IMG/VR virus record: IMGVR_UViG_3300044618_002075
Location: 2,482 to 66,481 of that record
Source of the DNA: a virus
DNA length: 64,000 nt
Direction: 5' to 3' (one strand)
Of the stretch, positions 1,459 through 64,000 are shown piece by piece. The position numbers and the translations under genes are program-made. The notes beneath the pieces were generated by a model. It did not search any database. It saw nothing but the letters and a program-made list of their open reading frames with translations, and was not told the DNA's origin. Numbering within the stretch: the stretch's first letter is position 1; the number at the start of each line of letters is the position of its first letter.

Positions 1459-1475
1459 GCGCAGTTGTCAACCCC

Positions 1476-1808: not shown

Positions 1809-1831
1809 CAACCGACCGACAACCACCACTC

Positions 1832-1910: not shown

Positions 1911-1926
1911 AGGAAAGGAGTAGCAA

Positions 1927-6874: not shown

Positions 6875-6893
6875 ACCTAACACCAACAAACCA

Positions 6894-7193
6894 ATGGCAA
6901 AAACACCTGAGAAAAAAGTCAAGGACATGTGCATCGAGATCCTCAAGGACTTCCGTGCATACTACTTCTTCCCTGTCATGGGCGGTTACGGTCGCTCAGG
7001 GATTCCCGACATCATCGTCTGCTACAGGGGGCAATTCATAGCCGTCGAGTGCAAAGCAGGCTTTAACAAAACCACCCCATTGCAGGACAAGGAGCTTGCT
7101 GCAATTTCCACCGCTGGTGGCATCACCCTCGTTATTCGCGAGGATACAATCGAACTGCTCCAACAGGAGCTAAGGAGAATCAAGCATGCATAA
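6894..7193 (+). CDS. VRR-NUC family nuclease (Holliday junction resolvase-like)
   Basis: TPE...GIPDII...AVECKA...TPLQ PD-(D/E)XK motif. Confidence 0.85.
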   Translation: MAKTPEKKVKDMCIEILKDFRAYYFFPVMGGYGRSGIPDIIVCYRGQFIAVECKAGFNKTTPLQDKELAAISTAGGITLVIREDTIELLQQELRRIKHA

Positions 7194-9708: not shown

Positions 9709-9952
9709 GCACATCCGAGGCCCGCGTGGCGTGATCGGTCGCGTTGACTACGTGGCCCGCAACATCAAGATCGCTACCGTCAACTACTGGACCGGCAAGC
9801 CATTGCCGACGAAGGAGATGAGCGATACGTTCTGGCATGAGGTCACGCACGCCATCTTGAACGACATGAACAGCCCGCTGTGCAGCGACGAGACCTTCGT
9901 CACTGCGTTCGCCAACCGACTCAACGAGGTGGTGCTAACCGCCAAGCTCTAA
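9650..9952 (+). CDS. small HEXXH (zincin-like) protein
   Basis: TFWHEVTHAIL...E; AAGGAG RBS. Confidence 0.7.
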   Translation: MHIPKSFKLSNIPYQVKLTEHIRGPRGVIGRVDYVARNIKIATVNYWTGKPLPTKEMSDTFWHEVTHAILNDMNSPLCSDETFVTAFANRLNEVVLTAKL

Positions 9953-10620: not shown

Positions 10621-10628
10621 GGTACATC

Positions 10629-10859
10629 ATGGCACGAGACTACAAGCGCGAGTACGAACTGTTCCAAGGCAAGCCCGAGCAGATCAAGAACCGGGCCGAG
10701 CGCGTCAAGGCGCGTCGCATGATGGAGAAGGTAGGCGCAGCGAAGAAAGGTGACGGCAAGGATGTGGACCACATCCGCCCCCTGAAGAGTGGCGGAACGT
10801 CTACGCGAAGCAACCTGCGCATGCGCAGCAGGAGCGCCAATAGAAGCGACAAGAGTTGA
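10629..10859 (+). CDS. small HNH-like protein
   Basis: GDGKDVDHIRPL...NLR...NRS. Confidence 0.75.
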   Translation: MARDYKREYELFQGKPEQIKNRAERVKARRMMEKVGAAKKGDGKDVDHIRPLKSGGTSTRSNLRMRSRSANRSDKS

Positions 10860-10876
10860 ACAACATCGGAGCAAGC

Positions 10877-12466: not shown

Positions 12467-12514
12467 AATCTTTGACAAGCGGGCTAAGTGACCCGTGACA
12501 CGAAAGGAGTAAGC

Positions 12515-12919
12515 ATGGATCAGAACGAAGAAGCGGACGCCGTGCCGCTGGACAAGTTGGTTCGCATCTACATGAAGATGCGTGCGAAGCTGTCGGAACT
12601 CGACGCAGAAGTCGAGATCATCAAAGAGCAACAGCAGTTGATCAAGAACGAGATCAAGGACCGCATGCGTAGCGTCGGCGCCAAGTCGATGAAGACTGCA
12701 CACGGTACGGTCTCGCTCACCGAGAAGACGCGCTACTACACCCAAGACTGGGACTCGTTCAAGCGCTTCGTCATCGAGAACGATGCTGTTGACCTGTTGG
12801 AGAAGCGCATCGCGCAGACCAACATGAAGTTGTTCTTGCAAGAGAACCCTGCAATGGTTCCCCCGGGATTGAACTCGGACACGGAACTCGACGTTTCCAT
12901 CCGCAAAGCTGCGGCGTAA
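12515..12919 (+). CDS. conserved coiled-coil protein of the replication module
   Basis: Strong RBS GAAAGGAG; lies between helicase and SSB-like gene. Confidence 0.75.
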   Translation: MDQNEEADAVPLDKLVRIYMKMRAKLSELDAEVEIIKEQQQLIKNEIKDRMRSVGAKSMKTAHGTVSLTEKTRYYTQDWDSFKRFVIENDAVDLLEKRIAQTNMKLFLQENPAMVPPGLNSDTELDVSIRKAAA

Positions 12920-12931
12920 GGAGCTATTCAC

Positions 12932-13951: not shown

Positions 13952-13957
13952 GTAACT

Positions 13958-13980
13958 GGGGGCGGCATTGCCGCCCCCTT
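13958..13980 (+). terminator. GC-rich hairpin, possible terminator
   Basis: GGGGGCGGC-ATT-GCCGCCCCC then TT. Confidence 0.45.
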
Positions 13981-13986
13981 CGCAAT

Positions 13987-14265
13987 ATGCCGTACTCAAT
14001 CGACACCATCCACCGCATCAGGAAAGGACCGCGCAACCTGGGCAACACGCTCGGGCGCATCGCGGTCGATCTTGATTTCTCCGTTCAGCGTATCGCGAAG
14101 GCCACCAACGCTACGCGTCAGACCGTCTACAACTGGATGGCTGGTGGCGAAGTGATGGGCGCCTACCGCCCGGTCGTTGAGCGCTTGATCAATATACTGC
14201 AGCAAGCACAGACTGCAGACAAAGCATGGGAAGCAGCATGTCAGGAATTCAACCTTCGAGCTTGA
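13987..14265 (+). CDS. Cro-like HTH protein
   Basis: SVQRIAKATNATRQTVYNWMAG. Confidence 0.75.
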   Translation: MPYSIDTIHRIRKGPRNLGNTLGRIAVDLDFSVQRIAKATNATRQTVYNWMAGGEVMGAYRPVVERLINILQQAQTADKAWEAACQEFNLRA

Positions 14266-14420
14266 CACCTAGCGAGTTGGTGCGTTACGCGGAATTGGCC
14301 AACGTCAACGGCCTGCCAAAGCATTGGTGCCAGGAACTCATTGCCGTGCTCGACGCATACGTCACCAAGTACGGCGACGAAGCGGTAGCAAAGCGCCCAG
14401 AGCAAGCACCCCTTTTCTGA
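14238..14420 (+). CDS. small protein with C-terminal QxxLF motif
   Basis: Ends PEQAPLF. Confidence 0.65.
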   Translation: MSGIQPSSLTPSELVRYAELANVNGLPKHWCQELIAVLDAYVTKYGDEAVAKRPEQAPLF

Positions 14421-14434
14421 GGGGGCCGCTCTTC

Positions 14435-17314: not shown

Positions 17315-17489
17315 GCGGGGTCAGGGCTTCTTCGTCCCCGCCCTGGACCTAGAGGCTGTGCGAGAGGCGGGACTGCTGGCTGCAGTCCCGCTCCGCTTGA
17401 AAGACGCTCGTGCGATGTACGCTATCAGGCAGGGGCGGCTTGGGGTGTTCTTCTACCGGACATGGCCTGCACCGTCTTCGAGAGCGTGA
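17283..17489 (+). CDS. small protein resembling the 1536-1808 product
   Basis: FPWDRLERGQGFFVP...GVFFYRT. Confidence 0.6.
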   Translation: MRKCFPWDRLERGQGFFVPALDLEAVREAGLLAAVPLRLKDARAMYAIRQGRLGVFFYRTWPAPSSRA

Positions 17490-35492: not shown

Positions 35493-38400
35493 TCAAGTTT
35501 GGATTTCAACCCAGCCCGGGGACTGGGTATCGTTGATCTCGACCCAGGTCGTGGACGGCGCGGTCACAACATTTTGCCAGTTCGGGGTCTGGCTGTCATC
35601 TATTGGATTCCAGAGGTAGCTGCCCGCCACAAGGTCCGTGATAGCTCCGGCGTCGCTGAACGAGACATTGAACGTGCCGCCCGCAGTAGGCGTATCCAGT
35701 GCCTGCGCGGCATCAAGGATGCTTACGTTGAACGTGGACGCAGCAACCGCGGGCGTATCCGCCCCTGTGGCAGTGTCAGAAAATACCACGCTGAACGCGG
35801 CAGCGGCTGAAGTTGCGTCTGCACCTGTGGCCGTATCAGAGAAGAATGCTCCGAACGAGGCCCTGGCAGAGATCGCATCGGCGCCGGTAACCGTGTCAGA
35901 GAAAGAAGCGCTAGTAGAAAGCGCTCCCGAGATAGCATCGGTGCCGGTAGCTGTGTCAGAAAAAGATACCCCTATCGAAGCGGAAGCGGCTACGGTATCT
36001 GCACCTGTAGCAGTATCAGAAAAAGTTGCACTAAAGACAAAGTTCGATGTGACAGCATCCGAGCCTGTGGCTGTATCACTCAACGAAACGTTGAATGTTC
36101 CAGATGCCGCGAATGCATCTATACCGGTAGCCGTCTCACTGTAAGCTGCGCCAAAAATTGATGCCGCGACAGAAACTGCGTCTGCGCCAGTTGCTGTGTC
36201 GCTGAAAGATGCGCTGTATACCGTGCCCCCCGCTGCTTCAAAGTACCAGCCCAGTGACCCGTTGTTGGTCGAGTTGGCGCCCGCGTACCACGTTGTGGTC
36301 AGCGAGTAGGCGCGGATACCCGTGATCGTCAGGTAGTCCGGCGTGGTCACCGTACCGGAGGTCAGGACCAGTGTTGCAGGCGAAGCGGCAGAAGACCCCC
36401 TCAGCGTCAAGACCCTACCAGCTTCACCAGCAGCGGTGAAACTACCAACCGTCTGCGTTGTGGCATTGAAGTTGATGGTGGTGGCACCCGTGGCTTTGTA
36501 GGTGTTAGTGATGTTGGCAAAAGTGTTGTTGCCGGTGATACCCAGTTCGCTTGCGCTACCTTGATCAAGCGTAATACCTGAGTAGTTAGCACCGCCACCG
36601 CCAAAAGTTTTACCGGCAGATCGCGTCATGCTTATGATACCCGTGCCCGTAACGGTGAGGTTAGTAGCCACGACGCCGAAAGAAAATATAGCGAGTGTCC
36701 ACTTGCCTGAACCAAAAGCCATAGTTCTTGTATTTGAGCCAGACGTAGTAATGGTGGCACCTTCTCCAGAGAAAGTCACATTATATGTAGCGGCGTTAAA
36801 TTCTCCAGTTAGAAGGTTCAACGCCCCAGAGGCATTACTGTTTGATGAGAAAGCGTCTTGCAACGTCACCGATCCCCCGGGAGTGTCTACCGTGAACGCC
36901 TGCGTAAACGTCTTCCCCGCGCTGGTGATTGTCTGACTACCACGCCCAGCAAAAGTCATCGCCCCCGTGCCCGTCAGCGTAGTGCCTGTACCATTGATCC
37001 AATTACCATAGATAGCTGGTGTCTGGCTTCCCGTCGCCAGCGTCATCGTATTCGTCGTCCTAGCCGACATGTCGATGGTGCCAATGTTGAGGTCTAGATT
37101 GATGGTAACCGTTGCCCCGCTGTTCAGCCCAGTGGCTTCAAAGATGCATGTATCTTGAGCAAGAGGAAAAAAGTCATTGCTGGGCGTACCACCAGATGAA
37201 GAGGCCCATCCATTTGATGTCCAGTTGCCGCCACCAGCGAGGTTCCAATACACCGTCTTTGCGGCAGCAAACGTAATACTACTGTTACCCTTGCAGTCTC
37301 CGACTCGCGCACCAGAAGCAGGAGCAGCGGCGCCTGCAATGGTGATATCTCGGAAATCCGCGTCAGCCATAGACACGGCGGCGCAGGTCAGCGTACGCGT
37401 GGTGCCAAGCGTGTCCGACCGCACAAAGGTTCGGCCCCGCATGCTGCTAAGGTTTACACCTGCTGGCAGCGTCAACGTGCCGTTTACGGTTTGACTAGCA
37501 GCCAGCACCAACTGTCGAAAGTTGGACGAAGAAACAGACGCAGTAGAAAGATTGTTGAAGGTGTTGGCTCCGTTAATTGTGGCCGTCCCCGTCCCAGTAC
37601 CGGTGAAGGTGACGTTGTAGAACGTTTTGCCGTTGCCGGAGAAGGTTGGAGAAGTAGCGGAGCAGTTGACTTGGGACGTACTTGCTGTAACGGTCAAGTT
37701 GGCAGCGTTGGTTTCGGTCGTGCCAAAATTTATTGGTCCGCTTGCAGACAAAGCAACAGTTCCAGATCCAAGATCTAAAGTCCTAGAATGTGCGTTGTCG
37801 CTGGAAATAGAACTCGCCGTAAAATTGTACGTATCAAAATCAAACAACCCATTAATAATGGTTATTGTAGCATTTCCTATAGCAAGGGCGCTGCCTAGCG
37901 TCCATTCAGAACTGACACCGTTTACATCAATTGAGGACGCTAACGCAACTCCATTTGTCGTCAACACGTTGCCTGCGGTAGACCCAGAAAGCGTAATTAC
38001 CCCCGTGTACGTTCTCGTCAGCCCTGTCGCAGGCAGCGTCACGTTGCCGTGAATACCGACAATAGTTGTGCTGCCTGCCAGCGTCACGTTGCCCACCAAC
38101 GGGCCTGCAATGGTGAGAGACTTCATCCTGATGCCGCCAGTGACAGCGTTCACCGTGGCTGTGTAGGCTGTGGCGTTGGACAGGCTGTCGAAGACAACAG
38201 CATCATGGCTTCTCGGCACAGACGCGCCTGAGCCGCCACCAGACGACGTAGACCACCGCGCGGTGTCGCTCCAGTTGCCTGTGCCACCCACCCAGTAGCG
38301 CGTGCTGTCGGCAGGCTTGGCTGTGCGGTAGACAGGCGCTGCCGCCGTGCCTGTGCTGTTGGCACCGGCGTAGAACTCACCAGGGCTTGTGGCAGCAAAG

Positions 38401-41360
38401 CCAATCGAGCCCATCGCAAGGTAGTCAATGCTGTCTGTGCAGGCCCCAGCGAGGATGTGGGCAGTGCCTGTGCCGGTGAGGGTGACGACGTTGCCTGCTG
38501 TGCCCGTCACCGTCCATTTGCCGAAGGTCTGTGCCGTGCTGCCAAGGGCAATGGTATGGGCTACGGTTTTGGTGGAGGCAAGTTCTGTGAATTGGTTGTT
38601 TCCGGTGATGGTGAGAGTGGATGTGCCGGTGATGCCGCCGATGGTGAGTTTGTTGTAGGAAAGACCGCCGCCTTGAAATGTCCGAGCAGCGGTGCTGGTG
38701 TCTGACAAAACGATGTCGGCGGTGCCTTTGTAAAAGTTTAAGTTGGTTACTGTTGGAATTCCCCAAACGGTTCCTGTACCGGAAATGGTCCAAGTTCCAG
38801 AACCCATTTTAAGGGTTCGGCTTATTGAACCTTGAGAATCAAAAAGACCAACGGTAACACCGTAAGCCACAGCATCAAAAGTGCCGCTTACCACACCAAA
38901 AAACCGAGTTGCACCGATTATAAAAGCATCAGCAAGCTGGACAATGCCTGTAACGGCGTCAACCGTGATAGGACATCCAAACGTCACGCCATTGCTGGTG
39001 ATCGTCTGCGTGCCGCGCTTGGCAAACGTGATCGTACCCGCTGTACTAGACGACGTCACTCCTGTGCCAAACTTCCAGTCGCCGTAGACAAAAGGAGTGT
39101 TGCTTCCGGTGGAGAGCGTCATCGCGCTAGTACGCGCAGACGCATCAAACGTGCCAATGTTCCAAGCCTGATCTATCGTCACCGTCCCTGCGCTGCCCGT
39201 GTTGTCAAACACAGCCGTGTCCTGCGCCAGCGGGAAGTTGTTGATGTCGGGCGTACCGCCAGAAGACGGAGCCCAGGCCGTAGCAGACCAGTTCTGCGTG
39301 CCTGCGAGGTTCCAGTACACCGTCTTGGGCGAAGGGAAGGTGATGCCGCTGTTGCCGCCACAGTCGCCTGCACGGGTCGGAGAAGAGCCTGCTGCGGTGC
39401 CTGCAATGGTGATGTCGCGGAAGTCGCAGTCTGTGGCCGAAAGCGTGCCTACGGTGAGTGTTGCAGCAACGCCCCGATTGTCTGAGCGAACAAAGATGCG
39501 TCGGACAGGCGAAGCACCCGCTACAGTGAGAGTGCCGTTTATCTTGTCGTTGGCTACATCGTTAAAAAGAATAACGCTGGTGCCTGTGCCGAACGGGGGC
39601 GTTATGGTTATATTGTTGAACGTGCTTCCGCCAATAGGGCTCAAAATACTTGCAGTTGAGATTGCGGTACTTGTTAGTGAAACGTTGTAGAACGTCATCC
39701 CGCCCGGAGTCAACGCCGCTGCAGAAGAAGAACAGTTTATCTGCGACGTACCTGCATTGAATGTAAGATTTATAGACTGTGTAAACACCACAGGAGACGA
39801 GCCGCTCAACGTTACCGTACTCGACCCCAGCGTTATCGTCCTGATGTTAGCGTTTGTCGATGAAATCGCAGCGGCAGTGACGTTGTAGTTCTTGGTGTCA
39901 AAGGCGCCGCTGGTGACCGTGAGGGTGTTGGAGCCAATGTCCAACGCATCGGCAAGTTCGACAGAATTCCCATAGGCATCAACGATCAGAGGTTGAGTAA
40001 ACGTTTTACCCGCACTGGTGATTGTCTGCGTTTGTCTGCCGGTAAATGTAAGGGCGCCTGTACCAGAAATCGTCGTACCGGAACCGTTTGCCCAGTTCCC
40101 GTATATAAGCGGTGTTGTTGATCCTGTGGCGAAGGTCATCGCGTTTGTTCGCGTTGACATGCTCACCGTGCCTATATAGTTGAAAGCGCTATCAAGCGTC
40201 ACCGTAGCCGACGTATTCAGCCCCGTGTTCTCGATGACCGCCGTGTCCTGGGCCAACGGGAAGTTGTCCGTGCTGACCGCGCCGCCAGAGCTTGCAGCCC
40301 AGTTGTTGCCGCTCCAGTTCCCGCCAGCGGCTTGGTTCCAGTAGACGGTCTTTGGCGTGCTGAAGGTGATGCCTCTGCAGCCTCTCAAGTCTCCAACACG
40401 AGTACCGCTGATGGGCGCGGCTGTGCCAATGACGTAGAGGTCTCGGAAGTCTGCGTCTGTCAGGCTTGGTGTGGCATTGACGGTGAGGGTTTGGGCGATG
40501 CCGTAGGTGCTTGAACGAAACCAGACTCTGCGGTTGCCTGCGGTGCCTGTGGTGGAGAGGGTGCCGTTGATGGTTTGTCTTCCCCAAAACAGCACCGCAG
40601 TCACGCCTACCGCAGAACGCGCAGTTACAGAAAGGTTGTTAAAGGTATTTATTCCTTCAATTTCAATACTTGATGAAGTTGTCGAAGTAAACGCTACATT
40701 ATAAAACGTCACTCCCGACGTAAACGGAGTTGCCCCCGAAAAAATGGGACTTGTTGCGGTGCAACTTATTGAAGATGTGCCCGCGTTAAATGTCAAGTTT
40801 GTATTGATTGCAAAATTTACTGCTGGAGTGCTACTTAGCGTTACAGTAGATGACCCAAGATTGATAGTTCTAGTATTACTGTTAGTGGATCTCAGATTAG
40901 GAGATGTGACATTGTAGTTTGCGGTGGTAAAAGTTCCGCTAGTGATCTGGAGGTCGTTGGCGGCAATAGTAAGCGCATCCCCCAGCGTCACCGTTCCGCC
41001 CGGTGCGGCTATGGTTAAACCCTGTAAACTTTTTCCTGCGGTTGTTAGCGTTCCTGTGGCATTGATGGTAAAGATGTTGGTGTAGGTAAACCCCATCCCC
41101 GCCACAAGAGTGACGCTGCCAGACACGGTGATGGCTGCGCTACCCGCCAACGTCCCTGTAAACCCTGTGCAGTTGATGGACTTGGCGCCGGTGTTGCCGG
41201 TAGAGATGGTGCAGGTGCCGGTGGACAGATTCGTGAAGAAAACGTCGTCAGCACTGGTAGGAACACTTGCTCCTCCAGCACCACCAGACGTAGTGGCCCA
41301 CTTGGTCCCGGCAGTGCCGTCCCAGTTTGCTGTGCCGCCGACCCAGTACCTGTCCGCCAT
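35493..41360 (-). CDS. 1955-aa Thr/Gly-rich repetitive structural protein (adhesin / fibre-like)
   Basis: Five large repeats opening YW...NW...W..SSGG...P...D; ten about-17-aa FSDTATG repeats at the C-terminus. Confidence 0.75.
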   Translation of the reverse strand: MADRYWVGGTANWDGTAGTKWATTSGGAGGASVPTSADDVFFTNLSTGTCTISTGNTGAKSINCTGFTGTLAGSAAITVSGSVTLVAGMGFTYTNIFTINATGTLTTAGKSLQGLTIAAPGGTVTLGDALTIAANDLQITSGTFTTANYNVTSPNLRSTNSNTRTINLGSSTVTLSSTPAVNFAINTNLTFNAGTSSISCTATSPIFSGATPFTSGVTFYNVAFTSTTSSSIEIEGINTFNNLSVTARSAVGVTAVLFWGRQTINGTLSTTGTAGNRRVWFRSSTYGIAQTLTVNATPSLTDADFRDLYVIGTAAPISGTRVGDLRGCRGITFSTPKTVYWNQAAGGNWSGNNWAASSGGAVSTDNFPLAQDTAVIENTGLNTSATVTLDSAFNYIGTVSMSTRTNAMTFATGSTTPLIYGNWANGSGTTISGTGALTFTGRQTQTITSAGKTFTQPLIVDAYGNSVELADALDIGSNTLTVTSGAFDTKNYNVTAAAISSTNANIRTITLGSSTVTLSGSSPVVFTQSINLTFNAGTSQINCSSSAAALTPGGMTFYNVSLTSTAISTASILSPIGGSTFNNITITPPFGTGTSVILFNDVANDKINGTLTVAGASPVRRIFVRSDNRGVAATLTVGTLSATDCDFRDITIAGTAAGSSPTRAGDCGGNSGITFPSPKTVYWNLAGTQNWSATAWAPSSGGTPDINNFPLAQDTAVFDNTGSAGTVTIDQAWNIGTFDASARTSAMTLSTGSNTPFVYGDWKFGTGVTSSSTAGTITFAKRGTQTITSNGVTFGCPITVDAVTGIVQLADAFIIGATRFFGVVSGTFDAVAYGVTVGLFDSQGSISRTLKMGSGTWTISGTGTVWGIPTVTNLNFYKGTADIVLSDTSTAARTFQGGGLSYNKLTIGGITGTSTLTITGNNQFTELASTKTVAHTIALGSTAQTFGKWTVTGTAGNVVTLTGTGTAHILAGACTDSIDYLAMGSIGFAATSPGEFYAGANSTGTAAAPVYRTAKPADSTRYWVGGTGNWSDTARWSTSSGGGSGASVPRSHDAVVFDSLSNATAYTATVNAVTGGIRMKSLTIAGPLVGNVTLAGSTTIVGIHGNVTLPATGLTRTYTGVITLSGSTAGNVLTTNGVALASSIDVNGVSSEWTLGSALAIGNATITIINGLFDFDTYNFTASSISSDNAHSRTLDLGSGTVALSASGPINFGTTETNAANLTVTASTSQVNCSATSPTFSGNGKTFYNVTFTGTGTGTATINGANTFNNLSTASVSSSNFRQLVLAASQTVNGTLTLPAGVNLSSMRGRTFVRSDTLGTTRTLTCAAVSMADADFRDITIAGAAAPASGARVGDCKGNSSITFAAAKTVYWNLAGGGNWTSNGWASSSGGTPSNDFFPLAQDTCIFEATGLNSGATVTINLDLNIGTIDMSARTTNTMTLATGSQTPAIYGNWINGTGTTLTGTGAMTFAGRGSQTITSAGKTFTQAFTVDTPGGSVTLQDAFSSNSNASGALNLLTGEFNAATYNVTFSGEGATITTSGSNTRTMAFGSGKWTLAIFSFGVVATNLTVTGTGIISMTRSAGKTFGGGGANYSGITLDQGSASELGITGNNTFANITNTYKATGATTINFNATTQTVGSFTAAGEAGRVLTLRGSSAASPATLVLTSGTVTTPDYLTITGIRAYSLTTTWYAGANSTNNGSLGWYFEAAGGTVYSASFSDTATGADAVSVAASIFGAAYSETATGIDAFAASGTFNVSLSDTATGSDAVTSNFVFSATFSDTATGADTVAASASIGVSFSDTATGTDAISGALSTSASFSDTVTGADAISARASFGAFFSDTATGADATSAAAAFSVVFSDTATGADTPAVAASTFNVSILDAAQALDTPTAGGTFNVSFSDAGAITDLVAGSYLWNPIDDSQTPNWQNVVTAPSTTWVEINDTQSPGWVEIQT

Positions 41361-57619: not shown

Positions 57620-59173
57620 TTAGTAATACGCCGCCCTGCGGCTGCTGCGGAACTCGCGCGGCTCTTCAGGCTCGTCTGACGGCAGGCGGATGAAGCCGCC
57701 CTGGCGCACGCGCATGAGCGCCTGCGTGCAAGTATCGACGTAGTCGTCGTGTTCACCAGCGGGGAAGGCTGCGACCTCCTCGATGACCTCGCGTGCCCAG
57801 CGTGTGTCTGGCGCCCACACGCGCCCGGATGCGAACATGTCCGAGACCGCGTTCAACCGCACGACCTTGTCGTTAGACTGGTTGGCCTTGCCACGTGAGG
57901 GGCTGAACTCGCTGAGCGGTATGCCCAACGCACGCAGCTCCTGAATGAGCGGTGCGCCAGCGGCCTTCTTCTCGATCAGGCACGCGTCAGGCTCCCACTC
58001 ACTGTAGTACTCAATCGCGCGTTTCTTCAGGTCAGGGAACGCCCAGCGCCCCTTGATGGCGTCGAGCAGGATGATATGCGCGTTGTCGTTGTCCTCCTCG
58101 TTGAACCACACACCCCACGTTGTGCAGGCGCTGTAGTCAGCGGAGGTCTTCGTCTCGTGCGCAGTGTCCCACGACTGGATGATGTACTCGCACTTCGGCG
58201 GCTTCTCAGGCTCCCAGATACGCCAAGACTCGCGTTTGATGACCGCCGCGACCTCAGAGGTGGGGTTCTGTATGTACTGCGCCTGCCAGAAGCGCGGGTC
58301 CATGCCCGCACGTTTGGCTTGCAACTCGGCAAGCGGCCACTGCTCAGGCCACAAACTCTTCTCTTCAGGCGTGTGCTCGTTGAGGATGGCAGGAAGCTCG
58401 ACAATCTCCCACTTGTCAGCATCAGGATTCTTGATCTGATGCTTGATGAGCATGCCTGTCAGGTCAATCTCGCTCCACCTCGTCATGATGACGATGATCG
58501 CACCCCCTGGCATCAAGCGCTGGAGTGGACCGGTCTGAAACCAGTTCCACGCCGCATCAAAAGGCGTGCGTGTGCCCGCCTTGATGTCCTGTTCTGAGTG
58601 CGGATCGTCAATGACGAACAAGTCCGCGCCCCGGCCTGCGATGCTGCCACCTACACCGACCGCGTAGTACTGCCCACCCTCGGTCGTAGACCACTTTCCT
58701 GCCGCTTTTTGGTCCTCAGAAACCGCCGTTTTGGGAAAAATGGGCGTGTAGACGTCTGTTGCGATGAGGTTTTTGATCCGACGCCCGTAGTCCTCTGAAA
58801 GAGACGCAGTATGCGTTCCCATGATGACCTTTTTGTGCGGAAACTTGCCCAAAAAGTAGGCGGGAAACAGGTACGACGAGAACTCCGATTTGCCCATACG
58901 GGGCGCGATGTTAATAATTACGCGATGTTTGCGCCCGTTGACGATGTCGTCGAAGATTTTGCTCAGTACGCGGTGGTGGGCGCCTTCTTTGAACCCCGGA
59001 TAGACGCTATGCGCGAAGCCAACCACTGAATTTTGTGCGGCTTGCAGGCGGCTGCGCCTTTCCTTCTCTTCAAGAAGGTCAAAAAGCTCCATTTTTTCCT
59101 TGACGGACATGCGAGGAAGCGCTGCCGTGATGGCCTGTGCCTCTTGCGGGGTCAAGAAATCAGGTAGCTTCAT
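57620..59173 (-). CDS. terL: terminase large subunit
   Basis: APRMGKS, VIDDP, MTRW, SWDTA, HDDYVD. Confidence 0.95.
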   Translation of the reverse strand: MKLPDFLTPQEAQAITAALPRMSVKEKMELFDLLEEKERRSRLQAAQNSVVGFAHSVYPGFKEGAHHRVLSKIFDDIVNGRKHRVIINIAPRMGKSEFSSYLFPAYFLGKFPHKKVIMGTHTASLSEDYGRRIKNLIATDVYTPIFPKTAVSEDQKAAGKWSTTEGGQYYAVGVGGSIAGRGADLFVIDDPHSEQDIKAGTRTPFDAAWNWFQTGPLQRLMPGGAIIVIMTRWSEIDLTGMLIKHQIKNPDADKWEIVELPAILNEHTPEEKSLWPEQWPLAELQAKRAGMDPRFWQAQYIQNPTSEVAAVIKRESWRIWEPEKPPKCEYIIQSWDTAHETKTSADYSACTTWGVWFNEEDNDNAHIILLDAIKGRWAFPDLKKRAIEYYSEWEPDACLIEKKAAGAPLIQELRALGIPLSEFSPSRGKANQSNDKVVRLNAVSDMFASGRVWAPDTRWAREVIEEVAAFPAGEHDDYVDTCTQALMRVRQGGFIRLPSDEPEEPREFRSSRRAAYY

Positions 59174-59754
59174 GCTTGCGGCAACAAAACTGCGTCTGAG
59201 ACGGGCTGCGCGTCAACAACACCCATGAAGCGTGACAGCTTCTCCTTGATCTTGTCATCAAGTTCGGTGTCGGTGACGTTTGTCTTCTTGACCTCGACCC
59301 TGTCGGTAAAGAGCGCCACTTCAGTTACGCGTCCCAGTAGCTCCAATGCGCGCAGACGTATGCGTGCATCAGGGTGCTTGGTCTCTTCGACGATCTTGGC
59401 GACCGCGTAGCCACGGATCTCCTTGGCCTGCTCGACAAACTCCCAGTCGTAGGCGGTCAGCATCCCTGTCAGGTGCTGCACCGCAGCCGGGGTCTTCAGC
59501 GCCAGCAGGCGCTCCTTCTGGGCTTTCTCTGGCGTATCGGGCGCAACGACTGCAGCGAACGCACTCTGAGCCATTGCCGCAGCGTTCTGGGCCTCGGTAG
59601 AGGCTGCCGTGGGTGCCCCCAGGCTGGCCAGCCAGTCGGCGGTGCCGTGCTGCGCGTTGATGACCTGAACAGGCGTGGCTTTGTCCACATCCAACACGGC
59701 ACTGGGCGTGTGGGTCACTACCTCGGGTTCGAAGTCCAGTAGGTGTTCAAGCAT
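59170..59754 (-). CDS. putative terminase small subunit
   Basis: Directly upstream of terL with ATGA overlap; RLRALELLG. Confidence 0.65.
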   Translation of the reverse strand: MLEHLLDFEPEVVTHTPSAVLDVDKATPVQVINAQHGTADWLASLGAPTAASTEAQNAAAMAQSAFAAVVAPDTPEKAQKERLLALKTPAAVQHLTGMLTAYDWEFVEQAKEIRGYAVAKIVEETKHPDARIRLRALELLGRVTEVALFTDRVEVKKTNVTDTELDDKIKEKLSRFMGVVDAQPVSDAVLLPQA

Positions 59755-59813
59755 GTTTGTGCGCAAGGCGCAGAGAAACGGCGCCTGATGAGCGCGGAGT
59801 GTATACTTAGGTG

Positions 59814-59890
59814 GCTTGCTGCTGCAAGCATGCTTGTCTCCTTTCGCCGGGATGTCCCGGCTTGACCCGGGCTGGTGCCCGGGTTTTTTT
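59814..59890 (+). ncRNA. candidate anti-Shine-Dalgarno small RNA
   Basis: TATACT at 59802-59807; hairpin, 16-nt unpaired ATGCTTGTCTCCTTTC, hairpin, terminator hairpin + T7. Confidence 0.6.
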
Positions 59891-59900
59891 ATTTGTGCAT

Positions 59901-59953
59901 GTAAAGGATTTGACAAAACATATTTATTTTTTGTAGTAAAGGATTTGACAAAA
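59901..59953. repeat. 18-bp direct repeat in AT-rich intergenic region
   Basis: GTAAAGGATTTGACAAAA at 59901-59918 and 59936-59953. Confidence 0.9.
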
Positions 59954-60136
59954 TACCTTTGTATTTTGCAATTTTTGGTTGTGAAAAATTAAATGCGCTG
60001 CGGCGGCAGTTTGTAAAAAATGCGTAGTGTGGTTGTGGATCAGTGTTCATATAACCACGCTACCTCGCTGCACAGTTTGGGGCTCCCCGGGTAGGGTGGG
60101 TCTGCTGCCAGCCAATTACCGATGCCCAGATACCCT

Positions 60137-60147
60137 TGTGGTAAAAT
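60137..60147 (+). promoter_or_regulatory. putative extended -10 early promoter
   Basis: TGTG-G-TAAAAT upstream of the first early gene. Confidence 0.55.
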
Positions 60148-60237
60148 AGACGTGTCGGTTGGGGATTCGCCCATCGACGTTTCGCTGCAGTCGCAGCATC
60201 GTGAAGTAGGACACGTTGTCCTAGTTGGAGTAGCAAC

Positions 60238-60684
60238 ATGAAGACGCAACAATTCAAGGCCGCCCTCGCTCGTTTCGTGAAGAAGCAGGGTGATATCGTC
60301 GCAACGCTGCGGCAGGATGCCGTGGATGCGGGTTTCACCACCTGGGAAGCATGCAAGCCCGTGGTGCTGGCCTTCATCAGTGAGAAGTACGGATGCCCCA
60401 TCGTGACCAGCACGTCCAACAACAACCGTGGGCAGGAAGTGCTGGACAGCACGCACTCGAAGTACGAGGCAGCGCTGCAAGCGTTCAAACGCGTGAAGGA
60501 GTCGCTGTGCGGCGATGCGGACAAGCCCGTGCGCAGCTTCAAGCGGGTGCCTGCACCCGTGAGGGCGCGGGTCGTGAAGGACACGACGGCGACGATGGTT
60601 GCCGCCGCCATCGCGGCAGGCCTGACGAAGGCCGAGCTGGCCGAAGTCCTGAAGGCCGTCAAGGCCGGCATTTCCTTCGAGTGA
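60238..60684 (+). CDS. hypothetical early protein
   Basis: GGAG RBS abutting a palindrome; strong codon bias. Confidence 0.8.
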   Translation: MKTQQFKAALARFVKKQGDIVATLRQDAVDAGFTTWEACKPVVLAFISEKYGCPIVTSTSNNNRGQEVLDSTHSKYEAALQAFKRVKESLCGDADKPVRSFKRVPAPVRARVVKDTTATMVAAAIAAGLTKAELAEVLKAVKAGISFE

Positions 60685-60748
60685 GGGTTCAACTAGGACA
60701 CGTTGTCCTAGTTGCCGCTACGAGCGTAGCGGGCAGGCTTGTGCCTGC

Positions 60749-61177
60749 CCAGTGCGCTTGATGCCTGCGTCGCAGGCGGCGTGCTGTTGGAGAGTGTGAT
60801 GGAGCTGTTTCAAAAGGATACCCAGGCGTGGCGGACCTACCGCCGCTTCGCGCTGCAGGGCAGCGCTTGGCTGCGCGGCCTCAACCGCGCGGAGCAGAAC
60901 TTCGTTCTGGGAGGTGCGCTGTACGCGACCCCCGAAGAGGCGGTGAAACGCCTCGGCATCGAGGCCGGCAGACCGGCTCGCTTGGTGCGCACTGCGCACC
61001 GGCGCTGCAGCGCCACATGGGCCGCGCTAGGTGCGGCGTTCGTCGAGGCCACGACGCCAAAGACCTGACGAATGCAACTAGGACGGGTTGTCCTAGTTGA
61101 GCGCACTGGCCTGCCTTCGGGCAGGCCAGTGCGCTTGATGCCTGCGTCGCAGGCGGCGTGCTGTTGGAGAGTGTGAT
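60749..61177. repeat. 52-bp exact direct repeat (two copies) containing a hairpin and RBS
   Basis: 60749-60800 = 61126-61177. Confidence 0.9.
60799..61068 (+). CDS. hypothetical early protein
   Basis: GGAG RBS, bounded by palindromes. Confidence 0.6.
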   Translation: MELFQKDTQAWRTYRRFALQGSAWLRGLNRAEQNFVLGGALYATPEEAVKRLGIEAGRPARLVRTAHRRCSATWAALGAAFVEATTPKT

Positions 61178-61178
61178 C

Positions 61179-61460
61179 ATGCGTAAGTTTCGTGTCGTAG
61201 CCGTGCTGGACCCCCAGCACTTCACCCGCTGCTTCTCCATTCATGGGGCGCTGATGCGCCCCCATAAGGGGGAGATCTACCGCAGCCTCCGGGCTGCGGA
61301 GGCCTATGCCCAACAATGTGCATTGTCGGGATGGTGCGCCTTCATCGTGCGGCGCACCCGCACGGGCTGGGCGCCCGTAGTGACTGCTGCGCCCACCATC
61401 CTCGGCGAAGAGCAAGCCGTGGCGTGGAGCGACATGCGCCGCGCGCGAATGAGTTGGTGA
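61179..61460 (+). CDS. hypothetical early protein
   Basis: GGAG RBS, bounded by palindromes. Confidence 0.6.
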   Translation: MRKFRVVAVLDPQHFTRCFSIHGALMRPHKGEIYRSLRAAEAYAQQCALSGWCAFIVRRTRTGWAPVVTAAPTILGEEQAVAWSDMRRARMSW

Positions 61461-61986
61461 GCATGACCAACTAGGACAACCCGTCCTAGTTCCGCTACCG
61501 AGCGTAGCGGGCAGGCTTGTGCCTGCCCAGCGCGCTTGAAGTTCCACATCGTGGGAAATAATTTCACATTATGGAACGTGTGGTAGTTGTCCCGCACCTA
61601 GCGTGCGTTGGGTAGCACTTCGGACGCTGCAAGTCCTTGATCCGTAAAGCTTTCTTATTTATTATTGGATGAATGATGTCTTATATATACGTATATAGAG
61701 CTGGGAATTTTCTTTTTTGAAAATGCAAGCCGGAATTCCGGAAATCTTTTTCCAGTCCTGTCCTAAGAGATACACTCCTACAAAAGTAGACATCTGGCCA
61801 CGAATCGGATTTCTCAATGCTGACAACGCTACTTAGCGTCCAATGTTGCGTCCACTTCGTCGTGTGTCTGGGACATTCCCGGGTTTTGCTGGACGCAAAC
61901 CTTACACGAAACTTACGCCTGCCCAACTAGGACAGCCCGTCCTAGTTCAACCCCGGGGCACACGCCCCACAGAAAGGAGCTTTCCC

Positions 61987-62604
61987 GTGTACTACGAACG
62001 CTTTTTAACGAAGGCAGACTGCCCGCGCTGCGGGCAGGCACGCCCGCTGCACGAATTTCGGAAGTGGTGGGGACCGAAGCGCATGCTGCGCACGCTCTGC
62101 GTGCATTGCGAGCCCGAGAAATCCCTCGAGGAAATGTCCCCGGAGGAGCGCATCACTGCGCTCGACCAGCAGCGTGCCTACGTCACGCCTGTCCGTGTGG
62201 CGCGCCTCAATGAGGCGGACGCCATGGCGGCCAAGCAGCACCGGTCAACGGGGACGAGGCGGCGCCACGCTGCCGAGCGTGTGCGTGCGTGGTCTCCCAC
62301 GCTCAAGGTCTTGAGGGCTGAGCGCTTGTGGGCGCAGCAGCATGCTGCGGACCCGGCGTCGCCTGCCTGGGGGAGGTTCTTCGAGGCCTACGAGGCGGCC
62401 TTGACGGACGCCTTGCGGCGTGCTGTGGCTGCGCGTGGCAACGCGTCGCGCACGCCCTCGCGGATACAGCCCACGCCTGATCAGGCGGACCCCATGCACT
62501 GGCTGCATGACATCACTATCAACACGCTGCGGCGGCTCTACAGCGACTGCGCCCCTGTGCGTGGTCGCAAGCTGTACCGCGATCCACTGTTCTTGGCCAA
62601 CTAG
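61987..62604 (+). CDS. zinc-finger early protein
   Basis: GTG after GAAAGGAG; CPRC...CVHC; its TAG stop lies within the palindrome at 62599. Confidence 0.7.
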   Translation: MYYERFLTKADCPRCGQARPLHEFRKWWGPKRMLRTLCVHCEPEKSLEEMSPEERITALDQQRAYVTPVRVARLNEADAMAAKQHRSTGTRRRHAAERVRAWSPTLKVLRAERLWAQQHAADPASPAWGRFFEAYEAALTDALRRAVAARGNASRTPSRIQPTPDQADPMHWLHDITINTLRRLYSDCAPVRGRKLYRDPLFLAN

Positions 62605-62644
62605 GACGCGGTGTCCTAGTTAAACACTGAAGGAGAGAAGTGAA

Positions 62645-62998
62645 ATGGAAGTCTTGCATCTGGAGCAACGCGTCACCCACCGCTATGTGGGCACCTACAG
62701 CCACCTCGACGAATGGCAGGACGTCTGTTCCGCCCCGGTCATACTGACCCCTGGCAAACTGGTCAAACCCGGCAACGATTACGACGAGGGGAACACCTAC
62801 CTGCGCTGGGCTACGCTGCCGCGCCTGCCCCGGCGTGCTGACCGAACGCATGCTGCTGGCGCTCTGGAGGACATGCTCTCTAGCTGGGGCTGTCATCACG
62901 AGTACGACTGCTGTGGCTGCGCTTCGGTCAGCACCCGGGTGCTGCGTCGCAAAGGTCGGCGTGTGCTGCTGCGCACGACGGTTACTCGCAACTACTGA
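62645..62998 (+). CDS. hypothetical early protein
   Basis: GCHHEYDCCGC; repeated RBS. Confidence 0.75.
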   Translation: MEVLHLEQRVTHRYVGTYSHLDEWQDVCSAPVILTPGKLVKPGNDYDEGNTYLRWATLPRLPRRADRTHAAGALEDMLSSWGCHHEYDCCGCASVSTRVLRRKGRRVLLRTTVTRNY

Positions 62999-63012
62999 AG
63001 GAGAGAAGTGAA

Positions 63013-63195
63013 ATGACGGAAGTCTGGTACGTGCAGGGCGCAGACCCCGAGTCGCCCATGCCGGTGCTGTTCACCACCAAGCTGGCTGCAGAGATGTACG
63101 CTCGGCAAGTGTGGCCCGAAGCAGACCCCGACACGCGCTACGCGCGGATCTTCTACAGGTCCGTGTGGGAAGAGAAAGACCTGAAGCAGGCGTAG
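63013..63195 (+). CDS. hypothetical early protein
   Basis: Repeated RBS AAGGAGAGAAG. Confidence 0.7.
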   Translation: MTEVWYVQGADPESPMPVLFTTKLAAEMYARQVWPEADPDTRYARIFYRSVWEEKDLKQA

Positions 63196-63211
63196 CCTGG
63201 AAGGAACAGTC

Positions 63212-63292
63212 ATGAACATGCACCGTGACGACAAGCTGCTGCTCGCAGCATGCGCCATCCTTGCAGCACTGATGCTGCTGGGTATCATTTAA
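63212..63292 (+). CDS. 26-aa hydrophobic peptide
   Basis: MNMHRDDKLLLAACAILAALMLLGII after AAGGA. Confidence 0.55.
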   Translation: MNMHRDDKLLLAACAILAALMLLGII

Positions 63293-63356
63293 TTGAGGGG
63301 GCATCCCGCCCCCTGTTTCAACTAGGACATAATGTCCTACTTCAAGGAGAGAAGCA

Positions 63357-63581
63357 ATGAACGGACACAAGAACTGGAACCACTGGAACGTCAGCCTGTG
63401 GATCAACAACGACGCAGGGCTCCACAACGTAGCCCGCTACTTCGTGCGCAGCGCGGCCACCCGTGACATCGCAGCAAAGCGGATGCTTGAGCACCTGAAA
63501 ACGGAAGCAGGCACCACCCACACGCCTGATGGCGCACCGTACAGCGTAAGCAGCATCCGCGCTGCGATGGTCGACATGTAA
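63357..63581 (+). CDS. conserved early protein (NGxKNWxxWNVSLWINND family)
   Basis: Motif plus TPDG; repeated RBS. Confidence 0.75.
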   Translation: MNGHKNWNHWNVSLWINNDAGLHNVARYFVRSAATRDIAAKRMLEHLKTEAGTTHTPDGAPYSVSSIRAAMVDM

Positions 63582-63597
63582 TTCAAGGAGAGAAGCA

Positions 63598-63732
63598 ATG
63601 AGCGGAGTCCGCATCATCTACAACCGCATCCTCGGCGGTTGGTTCGTCGTGCGCGGAGCGCACCAGACGCCCCTCACCGGGCGCTTCGACACCAAGGCAG
63701 AAGCCATCGCATGGCTGTCCCGCAAGAACTGA
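63598..63732 (+). CDS. hypothetical early protein (44 aa)
   Basis: Manual translation; repeated RBS. Confidence 0.7.
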   Translation: MSGVRIIYNRILGGWFVVRGAHQTPLTGRFDTKAEAIAWLSRKN

Positions 63733-63745
63733 AAGGAGAGAAGCA

Positions 63746-63919
63746 ATGAACGGATACATCGCGTTTTACAAGGGTCGCAAGGCCGAAATCCATGCCGCTA
63801 CTGCCTACGAGGCGCAGCAAAAGGCAGCCGCGCTGTTCAAGGCGCGCAAGTCCTACGAGGTCACCGTAGTCCTGGCCGAGAAGAACGGCCAGCAGGTGAC
63901 GCATACACCGACGTTCTGA
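63746..63919 (+). CDS. hypothetical early protein (57 aa)
   Basis: Manual translation MNGYIAFYKG...YEAQQKA; repeated RBS. Confidence 0.7.
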   Translation: MNGYIAFYKGRKAEIHAATAYEAQQKAAALFKARKSYEVTVVLAEKNGQQVTHTPTF

Positions 63920-63941
63920 AACTGAAAGGAGTACCCCAACC

Positions 63942-64000
63942 ATGACCCGCAAGACCCAACCCATCACATCTATCGACTACGCGGGGCGTACCTGCGCCTT
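63942..64000 (+). CDS. 5' end of an early gene (truncated by window)
   Basis: GAAAGGAG then ATG, open to the window end. Confidence 0.55.
   Translation, partial: MTRKTQPITSIDYAGRTCA

What the first reader, a model, noticed from the sequence alone, without database searches (positions are those of the whole stretch)
59802..59890. Candidate phage sRNA whose seed matches a repeated early-gene ribosome-binding sequence (one-to-many translational shut-off)
Seen: TATACT (59802-59807) lies 6 nt before a compact + strand unit. It has hairpin GCTTGC/GCAAGC (59814-59829), an unpaired ATGCTTGTCTCCTTTC (59830-59845), hairpin GCCGGG/CCCGGC (59846-59861) and terminator ACCCGGGC/GCCCGGGT + T tract (59865-59890). 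The reverse complement of 59831-59845 is GAAAGGAGACAAGCA. This matches 14/15 at 63731-63745 and 12/13 at 63344-63356 and 63585-63597, and pairs with one mismatch plus G-U wobbles at 62630 and 62998. It matches AGGAGA-AAGCA (454-464, DUF932 gene) with one bulge, and CGAAAGGAG-T-AAGCATG (12501-12517) as 9+7 bp. Complementarity extends beyond the generic SD core into the AAGCA spacer. Inference: a trans-acting anti-SD RNA, made divergently from the late (terS) promoter, silences a regulon of early genes that share an extended RBS. Caveats: no good -35 element, and the same bases read as RBS+ATG of a 37-codon - strand ORF.
Basis: partly seen in the sequence, partly recalled or inferred. Interest (0 to 1): 0.85.

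Follow-up and report, generated by a model that had tools for sequence, protein, structure and literature searches.

The report
Conserved phage anti-Shine-Dalgarno small RNA
Between the packaging gene and the early genes of this uncultured phage lies what looks like a small RNA gene, kept in dozens of related phages, whose exposed bases could pair with the ribosome-binding sites of the phage's own early genes and switch their translation off.

Summary
All coordinates, hairpins and matches are as described.

The window is an uncultured IMG/VR phage. Upstream of terS, 47 distinct sequences from related phages (window clade included) keep the same unit on the strand opposite terS. It has a sigma-70-like promoter back-to-back with the terS promoter, stem-loop 1, an unpaired UCUCCU, stem-loop 2 and an intrinsic terminator with a U-tract.

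Stem-loop 1 carries G-U pairs and folds better on that strand in 45 of 47 distinct sequences. A covariance model from one clade finds the unit once, in place, in 45 of 52 sources.

The rival 37-codon ORF is not conserved. It runs 5-52 codons with unrelated peptides, and some lineages lack the start or the SD.

The seed pairs best with early or replication gene starts. In the window, 8 of 36 early starts reach -17 kcal/mol against 0 of 33 late starts, and 0 of 500 flank-shuffled seeds reach that count. Relatives show the same.

No expression data exist. The window's own clade has lost the -35. Trans-repression of early genes is inferred, not shown. I rate this a new variant of a known kind.

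The parts
59814..59890 (+). Predicted small RNA, about 77 nt. It runs from 7 nt after the -10 hexamer to the end of the U-tract.
   Evidence: Folds as SL1, 16 unpaired nt, SL2 and terminator at -42.1 kcal/mol. Homologous units of 72-130 nt lie at the same place in relatives. The 5' end is inferred, not mapped.
59802..59807 (+). -10 hexamer TATACT of the promoter for the small RNA (P_rev). This window has no -35.
   Evidence: In 58 anchored relatives the key T(-7) is kept in 57 of 58, and a TTG -35 at a 17-nt spacing is kept in 39-45 of 58. The window clade has ACGGCG at that position. The strict consensus scan found no promoter.
59798..59803 (-). -10 hexamer TACACT of the terS-strand promoter. 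It overlaps the + strand -10 by 2 bp inside the near-palindrome AGTGTATACT.
59822..59827 (-). -35 hexamer TTGCAG of the terS-strand promoter, with an 18-nt spacer. It lies inside SL1 of the small RNA.
   Evidence: TTGC is kept in 42-54 of 58.
59814..59829 (+). Stem-loop 1 (GCUUGC-UGCU-GCAAGC).
   Evidence: In sister clades the stem is kept while the loop varies (UUCG in L010, GGAU in L011).
59830..59845 (+). Single-stranded seed AUGCUUGUCUCCUUUC. The anti-SD core UCUCC is at 59837-59841.
   Evidence: Unpaired in the fold from the predicted 5' end. Core columns are kept in 35-43 of 45 aligned units.
59846..59861 (+). Stem-loop 2 (GCCGGG-AUGU-CCCGGC).
   Evidence: A hairpin of unrelated sequence sits at this position in other clades.
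59864..59890 (+). Intrinsic terminator: a 9-bp G+C-rich stem, a 4-nt loop and U7.
   Evidence: A hairpin plus a T-run of 5-11 on this strand is present in all 52 distinct units. Stem sequences differ between clades, with compensatory changes.
59718..59831 (-). 37-codon ORF with RBS GAAAGGAGACAAGC before its ATG. This is the rival reading of the same bases.
   Evidence: It is not conserved and has no Pfam family.
59170..59754 (-). terS-like gene (194 aa). It is the first gene of the - strand structural block and has no SD.
   Evidence: all 80 relatives align from residue 1. TerL lies next to it.
59901..59953 (+). Two 18-bp repeats GTAAAGGATTTGACAAAA (59901-59918 and 59936-59953), each holding TTGACA. 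They are probably early promoters or operators, starting right after the terminator.
   Evidence: Relatives carry 2-3 palindromes of the form TGTCAA-N4-TTGACA at the same place.
63731..63748 (+). Best predicted target: RBS and AUG of a 57-aa early gene.
   Evidence: Duplex -21.9 kcal/mol. Cofold gain -19.2 kcal/mol.
12501..12517 (+). Predicted target: RBS and AUG of a 134-aa gene (DUF7307, below the Pfam cut-off).
   Evidence: -19.8 kcal/mol, -18.7 kcal/mol. Pfam result.
63344..63359 (+). Predicted target: RBS and AUG of a 74-aa early gene.
   Evidence: -18.7 kcal/mol, -16.7 kcal/mol.
63585..63600 (+). Predicted target: RBS and AUG of a 44-aa early gene.
   Evidence: -18.7 kcal/mol, -16.3 kcal/mol.
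7169..7188 (+). Predicted target: RBS and AUG of a 103-aa gene just upstream of the DNA polymerase A gene.
   Evidence: -17.7 kcal/mol, -17.8 kcal/mol.

Best explanation
Bases 59814-59890 (+ strand) are a small RNA gene of a family kept in a large group of uncultured phages.

Inferred: host RNA polymerase starts at a sigma-70-type promoter that sits back-to-back with the terS promoter, so the two -10 hexamers share a near-palindrome. It stops about 77 nt later at an intrinsic terminator, just before the early promoters.

Shown by comparison: the RNA folds as stem-loop 1, an unpaired pyrimidine stretch with the core UCUCCU, stem-loop 2, and a terminator hairpin with a U-tail.

Inferred: the exposed stretch mimics the 3' end of 16S rRNA and pairs with Shine-Dalgarno sequences. 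Its flanks extend the pairing into the spacer and AUG (and in some clades upstream of the SD) of the phage's own early and replication genes. Many of these share an extended ribosome-binding sequence, AGGAGA(G/A)AAGCA(A)AUG.

Inferred: this blocks 30S binding and turns down a set of unrelated early genes at once, as the RegA protein does in T4. In this window the whole 16-nt seed is free. In most relatives the part facing the spacer and AUG is held in a G-U-rich stem-loop 1, which a fully matched target could displace from the SD toehold.
For: (1) Conserved architecture. I examined 59 distinct upstream regions from 81 (80 IMG/VR loci plus the window; TerS identity 100 to 53%). On the strand opposite terS they keep the order promoter, SL1, unpaired CUCC, SL2, hairpin plus T5-11. 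The six distinct L012-clade regions lack the CUCC.

(2) Strand.
- The T-run always follows the hairpin on this strand.
- SL1 is more stable on this strand in 45 of 47 distinct sequences, by 5.8 kcal/mol on average, with up to 6 G-U pairs that would be C-A on the terS strand.
- Against dinucleotide shuffles, SL1 has mean z -2.72 on this strand (35 of 47 below -2) and -1.01 on the terS strand (11 of 47).

(3) Family signal. A covariance model built from 7 sequences of one clade gives exactly one hit, at the expected place and strand, in 45 of 52 sources, with no hit elsewhere in 445 kb. On the model-fitted alignment:
- 91% of cells pair, against 66% in shuffles (0 of 500 reach it).
- 27 of 30 pairs show changes on both sides.
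- Slid controls give 40-51% paired.

(4) Promoter. In relatives the opposite-strand promoter reads TTGnnn-17-TA(T/C)A(C/T)T, with 8-9 of 12 matches in 31 of 59 (shuffles reach 8 or more in 8%). Its T(-7) is kept in 57 of 58 and its TTG in 39-45 of 58. SL1 begins at nt 1-3 of the predicted transcript in 46 of 47.

(5) The rival ORF is not conserved.

(6) Targets in the window.
- 8 of 36 early or replication starts reach -17 kcal/mol, against 0 of 33 late starts.
- Flank-shuffled seeds average 0.54, and 0 of 500 reach 8.
- In full-length cofolds the three hairpins persist and the 14 best partners are all early.

(7) Targets in relatives. In 18 of 21 relatives with at least 4 kb of early region, the own seed beats flank-shuffled seeds (control fraction 0.02 or less). 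The own 22-nt seed binds own early starts better than the mean of other clades' seeds in 19 of 22.

(8) The extended RBS GGAG-N0-3-AGCA1-3-NTG occurs 46 times on early strands (172 kb), 2 times on late strands (258 kb) and 0 times antisense. The window genes that carry it are unrelated proteins: no pair among 12 has E below 0.3.
Against: - No expression or 5'-end data. No RNA run was listed (this is not evidence either way).
- In this window and its clade the -35 of the small-RNA promoter is absent (ACGGCG). The strict consensus scan found no promoter on either strand in 59500-60400.
- In the window clade all three hairpins are perfect Watson-Crick palindromes, so the window cannot tell the strand by itself (whole unit z -5.26 against -6.39). 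Here the strand call rests on the T-tract and on homology.
- The strand comparison for SL2 plus terminator alone was mixed: 30 favour this strand and 22 the terS strand, of 53.
- RNAalifold on plain MAFFT alignments found no SL1. The covariation figures come from an alignment fitted to the model, in which some rows (the window clade and the L025 clade) are out of register.
- The sequences are related, perhaps a dozen clades, so counts over 47 are not independent.
- Complementarity to early starts, and its modest clade-wise covariation, would also arise if the element were a copy of an early RBS.
- The L012 clade lacks the CUCC seed, yet its early genes keep the extended RBS.
- On the terS strand the element is a formally good RBS. 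It is fused in frame to terS in 12 of 59.
- In one relative, two tRNA genes on the terS strand lie just upstream, so terS-strand transcripts may cross the unit there.
Confidence: 0.5

Rival explanations
1. The small RNA is real, but its exposed UCUCCU does not aim at the phage's early genes. It might mask Shine-Dalgarno sequences of host mRNAs in general, as a host shut-off that spares SD-poor late phage messages. It might instead bind or titrate a protein.
For: In most relatives only 6-10 nt around UCUCCU are unpaired, which is a generic anti-SD. Late-strand genes carry far fewer canonical SDs than early ones (AGGAG-N4-9-ATG: 50 in 258 kb against 215 in 172 kb), so they would escape. The L012 clade keeps the early RBS motif without the seed.
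Against: Seed flanks match early starts better than flank-shuffled seeds in the window and in 18 of 21 relatives. The match follows the clade in 19 of 22. The host is unknown, so host targets could not be scored; no relative was found in bacterial genomes.
Confidence: 0.17
2. The functional strand is the terS strand. On this reading the bases are a real ribosome-binding site and AUG for a leader ORF or an alternative, longer TerS start. The hairpins are then 5'-UTR structure.
For: GAAAGGAGACAAGC-ATG is a strong RBS, whereas the terS ATG has none. A start codon follows the SD-like element at proper spacing in 48 of 59. The ORF is fused in frame to terS in 12 of 59, in three clades. A few SL2 loop-closing G-U pairs favour this strand. 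In L050, tRNA genes on this strand lie just upstream.
Against: - The conserved terS-strand promoter lies downstream of the element.
- No conserved terS-strand promoter lies upstream of it; the A-run before the hairpin is the terminator's T-run on the other strand.
- ORF length runs 5-52 codons with unrelated peptides.
- The start is absent in 4-5 of 59 and the SD in 6 of 59.
- In the nearest clades the hairpin loop varies freely while the stem is kept, which gives non-synonymous changes.
- SL1 cannot form on this strand in most clades.
Confidence: 0.1
3. The promoter and terminator pair is a transcriptional device and the RNA is a by-product. RNA polymerase at the opposite-strand promoter occludes the overlapping terS promoter until late. 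The terminator merely insulates the early promoters that begin about 20 bp further on.
For: The two -10 hexamers overlap by 2 bp, and each -35 lies beyond the other's start site, so both cannot be occupied at once. The terminator abuts the early promoter repeats.
Against: A by-product would not keep SL1 through compensatory changes and paired indels. It would not keep an unpaired UCUCCU in 35-43 of 45 units, or flanks that match early starts. The two roles could coexist.
Confidence: 0.1
4. The RNA acts in cis as an antisense. It pairs with terS-strand read-through transcripts that cross the unit, as sar RNA does with ant mRNA in P22. It would block the upstream RBS or trigger processing.
For: It is perfectly complementary to the RBS-like element by construction. 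In L050, tRNA genes could feed such transcripts.
Against: In the window and most relatives nothing on the terS strand lies upstream except divergent early promoters. The upstream ORF it would control is not conserved.
Confidence: 0.06

Closest known systems
T4 RegA translational repressor (recalled, not looked up here)
   Same: One phage-made factor would bind the translation-start regions of many unrelated early messages and shut their translation off. This is the same logic proposed here.
   Different: RegA is a protein that recognises the region around the AUG. Here the factor would be an RNA of about 77 nt that pairs with the SD, spacer and AUG. No RegA-like gene was sought.
Phage antisense RNAs that occlude a ribosome-binding site: c4 of P1/P7 (passages of the review PMC12197685 seen) and sar of P22 (recalled)
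   Same: These are short, structured, phage-encoded RNAs whose exposed bases pair around an RBS and block translation.
   Different: c4 and sar each control one anti-repressor message, encoded nearby or overlapping, in temperate phages. This RNA overlaps no evident message and has many dispersed candidate targets. No integrase was looked for.
CU-rich double-hairpin 'toxic small RNAs' of Betaproteobacteria, Rfam RF02278 (passages of PMC5688073 seen)
   Same: These are short RNAs (57-92 nt) with hairpins and CU-rich unpaired stretches, ending in a terminator. The window gives a sub-threshold match on the + strand at 59835-59892.
   Different: The score is 23.7 bits against a gathering score of 50, and none of 7 relatives matched. 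It is therefore not a member. Those RNAs are chromosomal, not phage-borne.
Bidirectional bacterial promoters with symmetric -10 elements (recalled from Warman et al. 2021, not read here)
   Same: Two divergent sigma-70-type promoters share a near-palindromic -10 region.
   Different: Here the hexamers overlap by only 2 bp, and one arm yields a short terminated RNA. The activity of either arm is untested.

Membership tests
Trans-acting base-pairing small RNA (bacterial or phage sRNA) | Own promoter | tested here: inconclusive
   The window has a -10 TATACT but no -35, and the strict scan is negative. Relatives have TTGnnn-17-TAyAyT, with T(-7) kept in 57 of 58 and TTG in 39-45 of 58.
Trans-acting base-pairing small RNA (bacterial or phage sRNA) | Intrinsic terminator with U-tail on the same strand | tested here: met
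   9-bp stem plus U7. Present in all 52 distinct units.
Trans-acting base-pairing small RNA (bacterial or phage sRNA) | Conserved secondary structure with compensatory change, specific to the strand | tested here: met
   Caveats: the alignment is fitted to the model, the sequences are related, and the window clade itself is uninformative.
Trans-acting base-pairing small RNA (bacterial or phage sRNA) | Conserved single-stranded seed complementary to target translation starts beyond chance | tested here: met
Trans-acting base-pairing small RNA (bacterial or phage sRNA) | Transcript detected; regulation of targets shown | not testable with these tools
   No RNA run was listed. The host is unknown.
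Rfam RF02278 Betaproteobacteria toxic small RNA | Score at or above the family's gathering score (50 bits) | tested here: not met
   23.7 bits. 0 of 7 relatives matched. No family reached gathering score in the window.
Small protein-coding gene (the 37-codon - strand ORF) | ORF length and peptide conserved among relatives | tested here: not met
   5-52 codons with unrelated peptides, start or SD missing in some, fused to terS in 12 of 59. No Pfam family.
Cis-antisense RNA of the sar/OOP type | An overlapping sense transcript on the other strand | tested here: inconclusive
   No conserved terS-strand promoter lies upstream. tRNA genes lie upstream in one relative. There is no RNA data.

The most novel reading that the evidence does not exclude
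A widespread group of uncultured phages encodes an RNA mimic of the 16S rRNA 3' end. It acts as a toehold-gated, one-to-many translational repressor of the phage's own early genes. The exposed UCUCCU docks on any SD. Only messages carrying the shared extended RBS can displace the G-U-weakened stem-loop 1 and form a 14-17 bp duplex. This would be an RNA counterpart of T4 RegA. Because its promoter is physically interlocked with the promoter of the packaging operon, early shut-off and late onset would be coupled.
Probability: 0.3. Interest if true: 0.85.

Novelty: new variant of a known kind. Interest (0 to 1): 0.68.

Why it matters
Temporal shut-off of early genes is well understood in only a few model phages, and there it is done by proteins.

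If this reading holds, a small RNA with a regulon of its own phage's early messages would be a new way to time a lytic cycle. It would also explain why unrelated early genes in these phages keep an almost identical ribosome-binding sequence. The proposed toehold arrangement, in which a weak G-U stem is displaced only by fully matched targets, would be a natural analogue of engineered toehold switches.

The unit is short and sharply bounded, and it is present in many related genomes. Reporter tests with compensatory mutations are therefore straightforward, even without the unknown host.

Tried and rejected
- **Rfam.** No family reached gathering score in the window. The permissive scan gave only sub-threshold hits, largely over the terminator end of the unit. 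Seven relatives gave nothing relevant.
- **DNA and TerS searches of cultured phages.** No match. TerL reaches only about 49% identity, to Pelagibacter phage HTVC027P. There are therefore no cultured relatives and no published transcriptome to borrow.
- **Bacterial genomes.** No TerS relative was found, so the host is unknown and host targets were not scored.
- **Public RNA runs.** No RNA holder was listed.
- **RNAalifold on plain MAFFT alignments.** 47 sequences gave 0 pairs. 13 sequences gave only the terminator. The cause is paired indels that put SL1 out of register. I then built a model from one clade.
- **Strand test on SL2 plus terminator.** Mixed result, so I moved to SL1.
- **Conserved peptide in the 37-codon ORF.** Rejected.
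- **A terS-strand promoter upstream of the element.** Candidates end in AATAAA or ATAAAA without the final T and are absent in two clades (read). Rejected as unlikely.
- **Pairing of the RNA with the terS start.** An 8-nt match exists in the window clade only, seen by eye. It is not conserved and was dropped.
- **Replication primer or packaging site.** Considered, but no test was available and nothing specific supports either.
- **Gene calls.** The calls used for target tests are my own crude ORF, GC3 and SD heuristic. It missed or mis-started some genes: terS was mis-started and the 1955-aa ORF was missed. I kept only + strand calls in 1-17400 and 60200-64000 (36) and - strand calls in 17400-59760 (33), and dropped 26 wrong-strand or other calls.
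- **Literature.** Searches, plus passages of the review PMC12197685, turned up no phage sRNA described as repressing a set of its own early genes through an anti-SD seed. Supplementary tables of that review (38 sRNAs without known function) were not seen.

Full report
**Context.** The window is bases 2482-66481 of a 66.5-kb IMG/VR virus record that CheckV rates complete. It has 60% G+C.

The - strand from about 17.4 kb to 59.75 kb holds the structural block. It ends with a portal-sized ORF, a large terminase (Pfam Terminase_6C, E 2e-10) and a 194-aa terS-like gene whose ATG is at 59754.

The + strand genes at 60238-64000 and 1-17314 are small early genes and replication genes: DUF932, family A DNA polymerase, SNF2 helicase, PD-(D/E)XK nuclease and DUF927.

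The finding lies in the divergent gap between terS and the first early gene. There is no cultured relative. TerL reaches at most 49% identity, and neither TerS nor the DNA gives a match.

**Observation.** All coordinates, hairpins and quoted matches are correct.

The + strand folds at -45.3 kcal/mol with z -5.0, and the - strand folds about as well. The terminator scan finds a 9-bp stem plus T-run on the + strand only.

The simple 15-mer count is only mildly above chance (5 against 1.55 expected). With the TCTCC core held and the flanks shuffled, the real seed gives 8 of 36 early starts at -17 kcal/mol or better. The control mean is 0.54 and 0 of 500 controls reach 8.

**Relatives.** A TerS search of IMG/VR confirmed 209 relatives. 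The best 80 were fetched, at 100 to 53% identity, and all align from residue 1. With the window they give 59 distinct upstream regions.

Read on the terS strand, they share this order:
1. an A-run plus a G+C-rich hairpin
2. a second hairpin
3. AGGAGA(A)GCA(A)(A)TG
4. CTTGCA, 17-18 nt, TACACT
5. a leader of 30-60 nt
6. the terS ATG

The A-run is a T-run on the other strand, so the first hairpin is an intrinsic terminator that points away from terS. Right after it come 2-3 palindromes holding TTGACA, which are probably the early promoters.

**Two interlocked promoters.** Both strands carry a sigma-70-like promoter around the near-palindrome AGTGTA(C/T)ACT.
- Anchored on the terS-strand hexamer, the base that gives the other strand's T(-7) is kept in 57 of 58.
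- A TTG at a 17-nt spacing on that strand is kept in 39-45 of 58.
- The terS-strand TTGC is kept in 42-54 of 58.

The window clade alone has replaced the opposite-strand -35 with ACGGCG. The strict consensus scan finds no promoter in the window.

**The RNA.** I took the start as 7 nt after the opposite-strand hexamer and the end as the T-run. The units are then 72-130 nt long (47 nt in the L012 clade). They fold as SL1, an unpaired stretch with CUCC, SL2 and the terminator. SL1 begins at nt 1-3 in 46 of 47 and ends 0-1 nt before UCUCC in 35 of 47.

In the window SL1 is a short self-contained hairpin and 16 nt are free. In most relatives the 3' arm of SL1 is CAUU(U)GCU, the complement of the spacer plus AUG. 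It pairs with the 5' end GGUA(A)GUG through three G-U pairs. An extra U in one arm goes with an extra A in the other.

**Which strand.**
- SL1 is more stable on the small-RNA strand in 45 of 47 distinct sequences, by 5.8 kcal/mol on average.
- Against dinucleotide shuffles, SL1 has z -2.72 on that strand and -1.01 on the terS strand.
- SL2 plus terminator alone gave a mixed answer.
- The window clade, with perfect palindromes, is silent on strand.

**Family signal.** Plain alignments did not yield a consensus SL1. A covariance model from the 7 sequences of one clade found one hit per source, at the expected place and strand, in 45 of 52 sources. There was no hit elsewhere. The 7 misses are L011, L012, L014-L017 and L023.

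On the fitted alignment 91% of cells pair, against 66% in shuffles, and 27 of 30 pairs change on both sides. Slid controls give 40-51%. Some rows are out of register. The figures lean towards the model and the sequences are related.

**The rival ORF.** On the terS strand the element is a good RBS, but the ORF behind it is 5-52 codons with unrelated peptides in 36 of 59.
- It is fused in frame to terS in 12 (three clades).
- It lacks a start in 4-5.
- The SD is absent in 6.

In the nearest clades the hairpin loop varies freely while the stems stay, which changes the peptide. The conserved terS-strand promoter lies downstream of the element, so the terS message would not contain it.

**Targets.** Early and replication starts pair better with the seed than late starts (median -12.5 against -8.9 kcal/mol; Mann-Whitney p 0.002). 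With a generic 16S-like anti-SD the two groups barely differ (p 0.06). In full-length cofolds the RNA keeps its hairpins and the 14 best partners are all early.

The target genes are unrelated proteins.

Across relatives the extended RBS occurs 46 times on early strands, 2 times on late strands and 0 times antisense. Own seeds beat flank-shuffled seeds in 18 of 21 genomes. Own 22-nt seeds beat the mean of other clades' seeds in 19 of 22 (the 16-nt version is).

In some clades the predicted duplex opens SL1 and spans 14-17 bp. In the L027 clade it runs the other way, into CAUCAGGAGAA upstream of the SD.

All this fits trans pairing. It would also follow if the element descended from an early RBS, so it cannot alone prove function. 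The L012 clade keeps the early motif without the seed.

**Known kinds.** No Rfam family fits.

The nearest things are these:
- phage antisense RNAs that cover one RBS (c4: passages; sar: recalled)
- CU-rich double-hairpin RNAs of Betaproteobacteria (passages; the score is far below threshold)
- for the logic, T4 RegA (recalled)

My searches found no phage sRNA described as repressing a set of its own early genes.

I confirmed those sites.

**Verdict.** A conserved small-RNA gene is very likely (about 0.8). Its action as a one-to-many anti-RBS repressor of early genes is the best-fitting mechanism but is unproven, at about 0.5 for the whole statement. It is a new variant of a known kind.

Noticed in passing
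59901-59953; loci L010, L023, L027 and others just beyond the T-run: Two 18-bp repeats GTAAAGGATTTGACAAAA lie in the window. Relatives carry 2-3 palindromes TGTCAA-N4-TTGACA at the same place, directly after the small-RNA terminator. They are probably tandem early promoters, whose -35 sits in an operator-like palindrome reading TTGACA on both strands.
   Followed up: partly
59781-59795 (- strand): The terS leader of the window clade carries an extra segment of about 11 nt that relatives lack. It forms a 5-bp hairpin followed by CGTTTCTCTG, which the scan flagged as terminator-like. The same insertion removed the -35 of the opposite promoter.
   Followed up: partly
59752-59754 (- strand) and relatives: terS has no Shine-Dalgarno sequence in the window and only weak ones in relatives. 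Late-strand genes in general carry far fewer canonical SDs than early ones (50 in 258 kb against 215 in 172 kb).
   Followed up: partly
L012, L014-L016, L018, L020 (unit about 47 nt): One clade has a shortened unit without the CUCC seed. It still has a strong opposite-strand promoter (TTGCAA-17-TATACT) and a terminator. A GCUUGCUCC stretch sits inside its terminator hairpin.
   Followed up: no
L050:4647-4816: tRNA-Pro and tRNA-His genes on the terS strand end 5 nt before the small-RNA unit in one relative. None was found in 4 sister loci or in the window.
   Followed up: partly
17425-25113 and 35493-41360 (- strand): Two giant ORFs of 2562 and 1955 aa lie in the structural block. They were not examined.
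   Followed up: no
I did not test them.
   Followed up: no
62626-62647 and 62994-63015: A second shared early start sequence, TGAAGGAGAGAAGTGAAATG, is exact on two unrelated genes. It pairs with the seed less well (-16.9 kcal/mol) through G-U pairs.
   Followed up: partly
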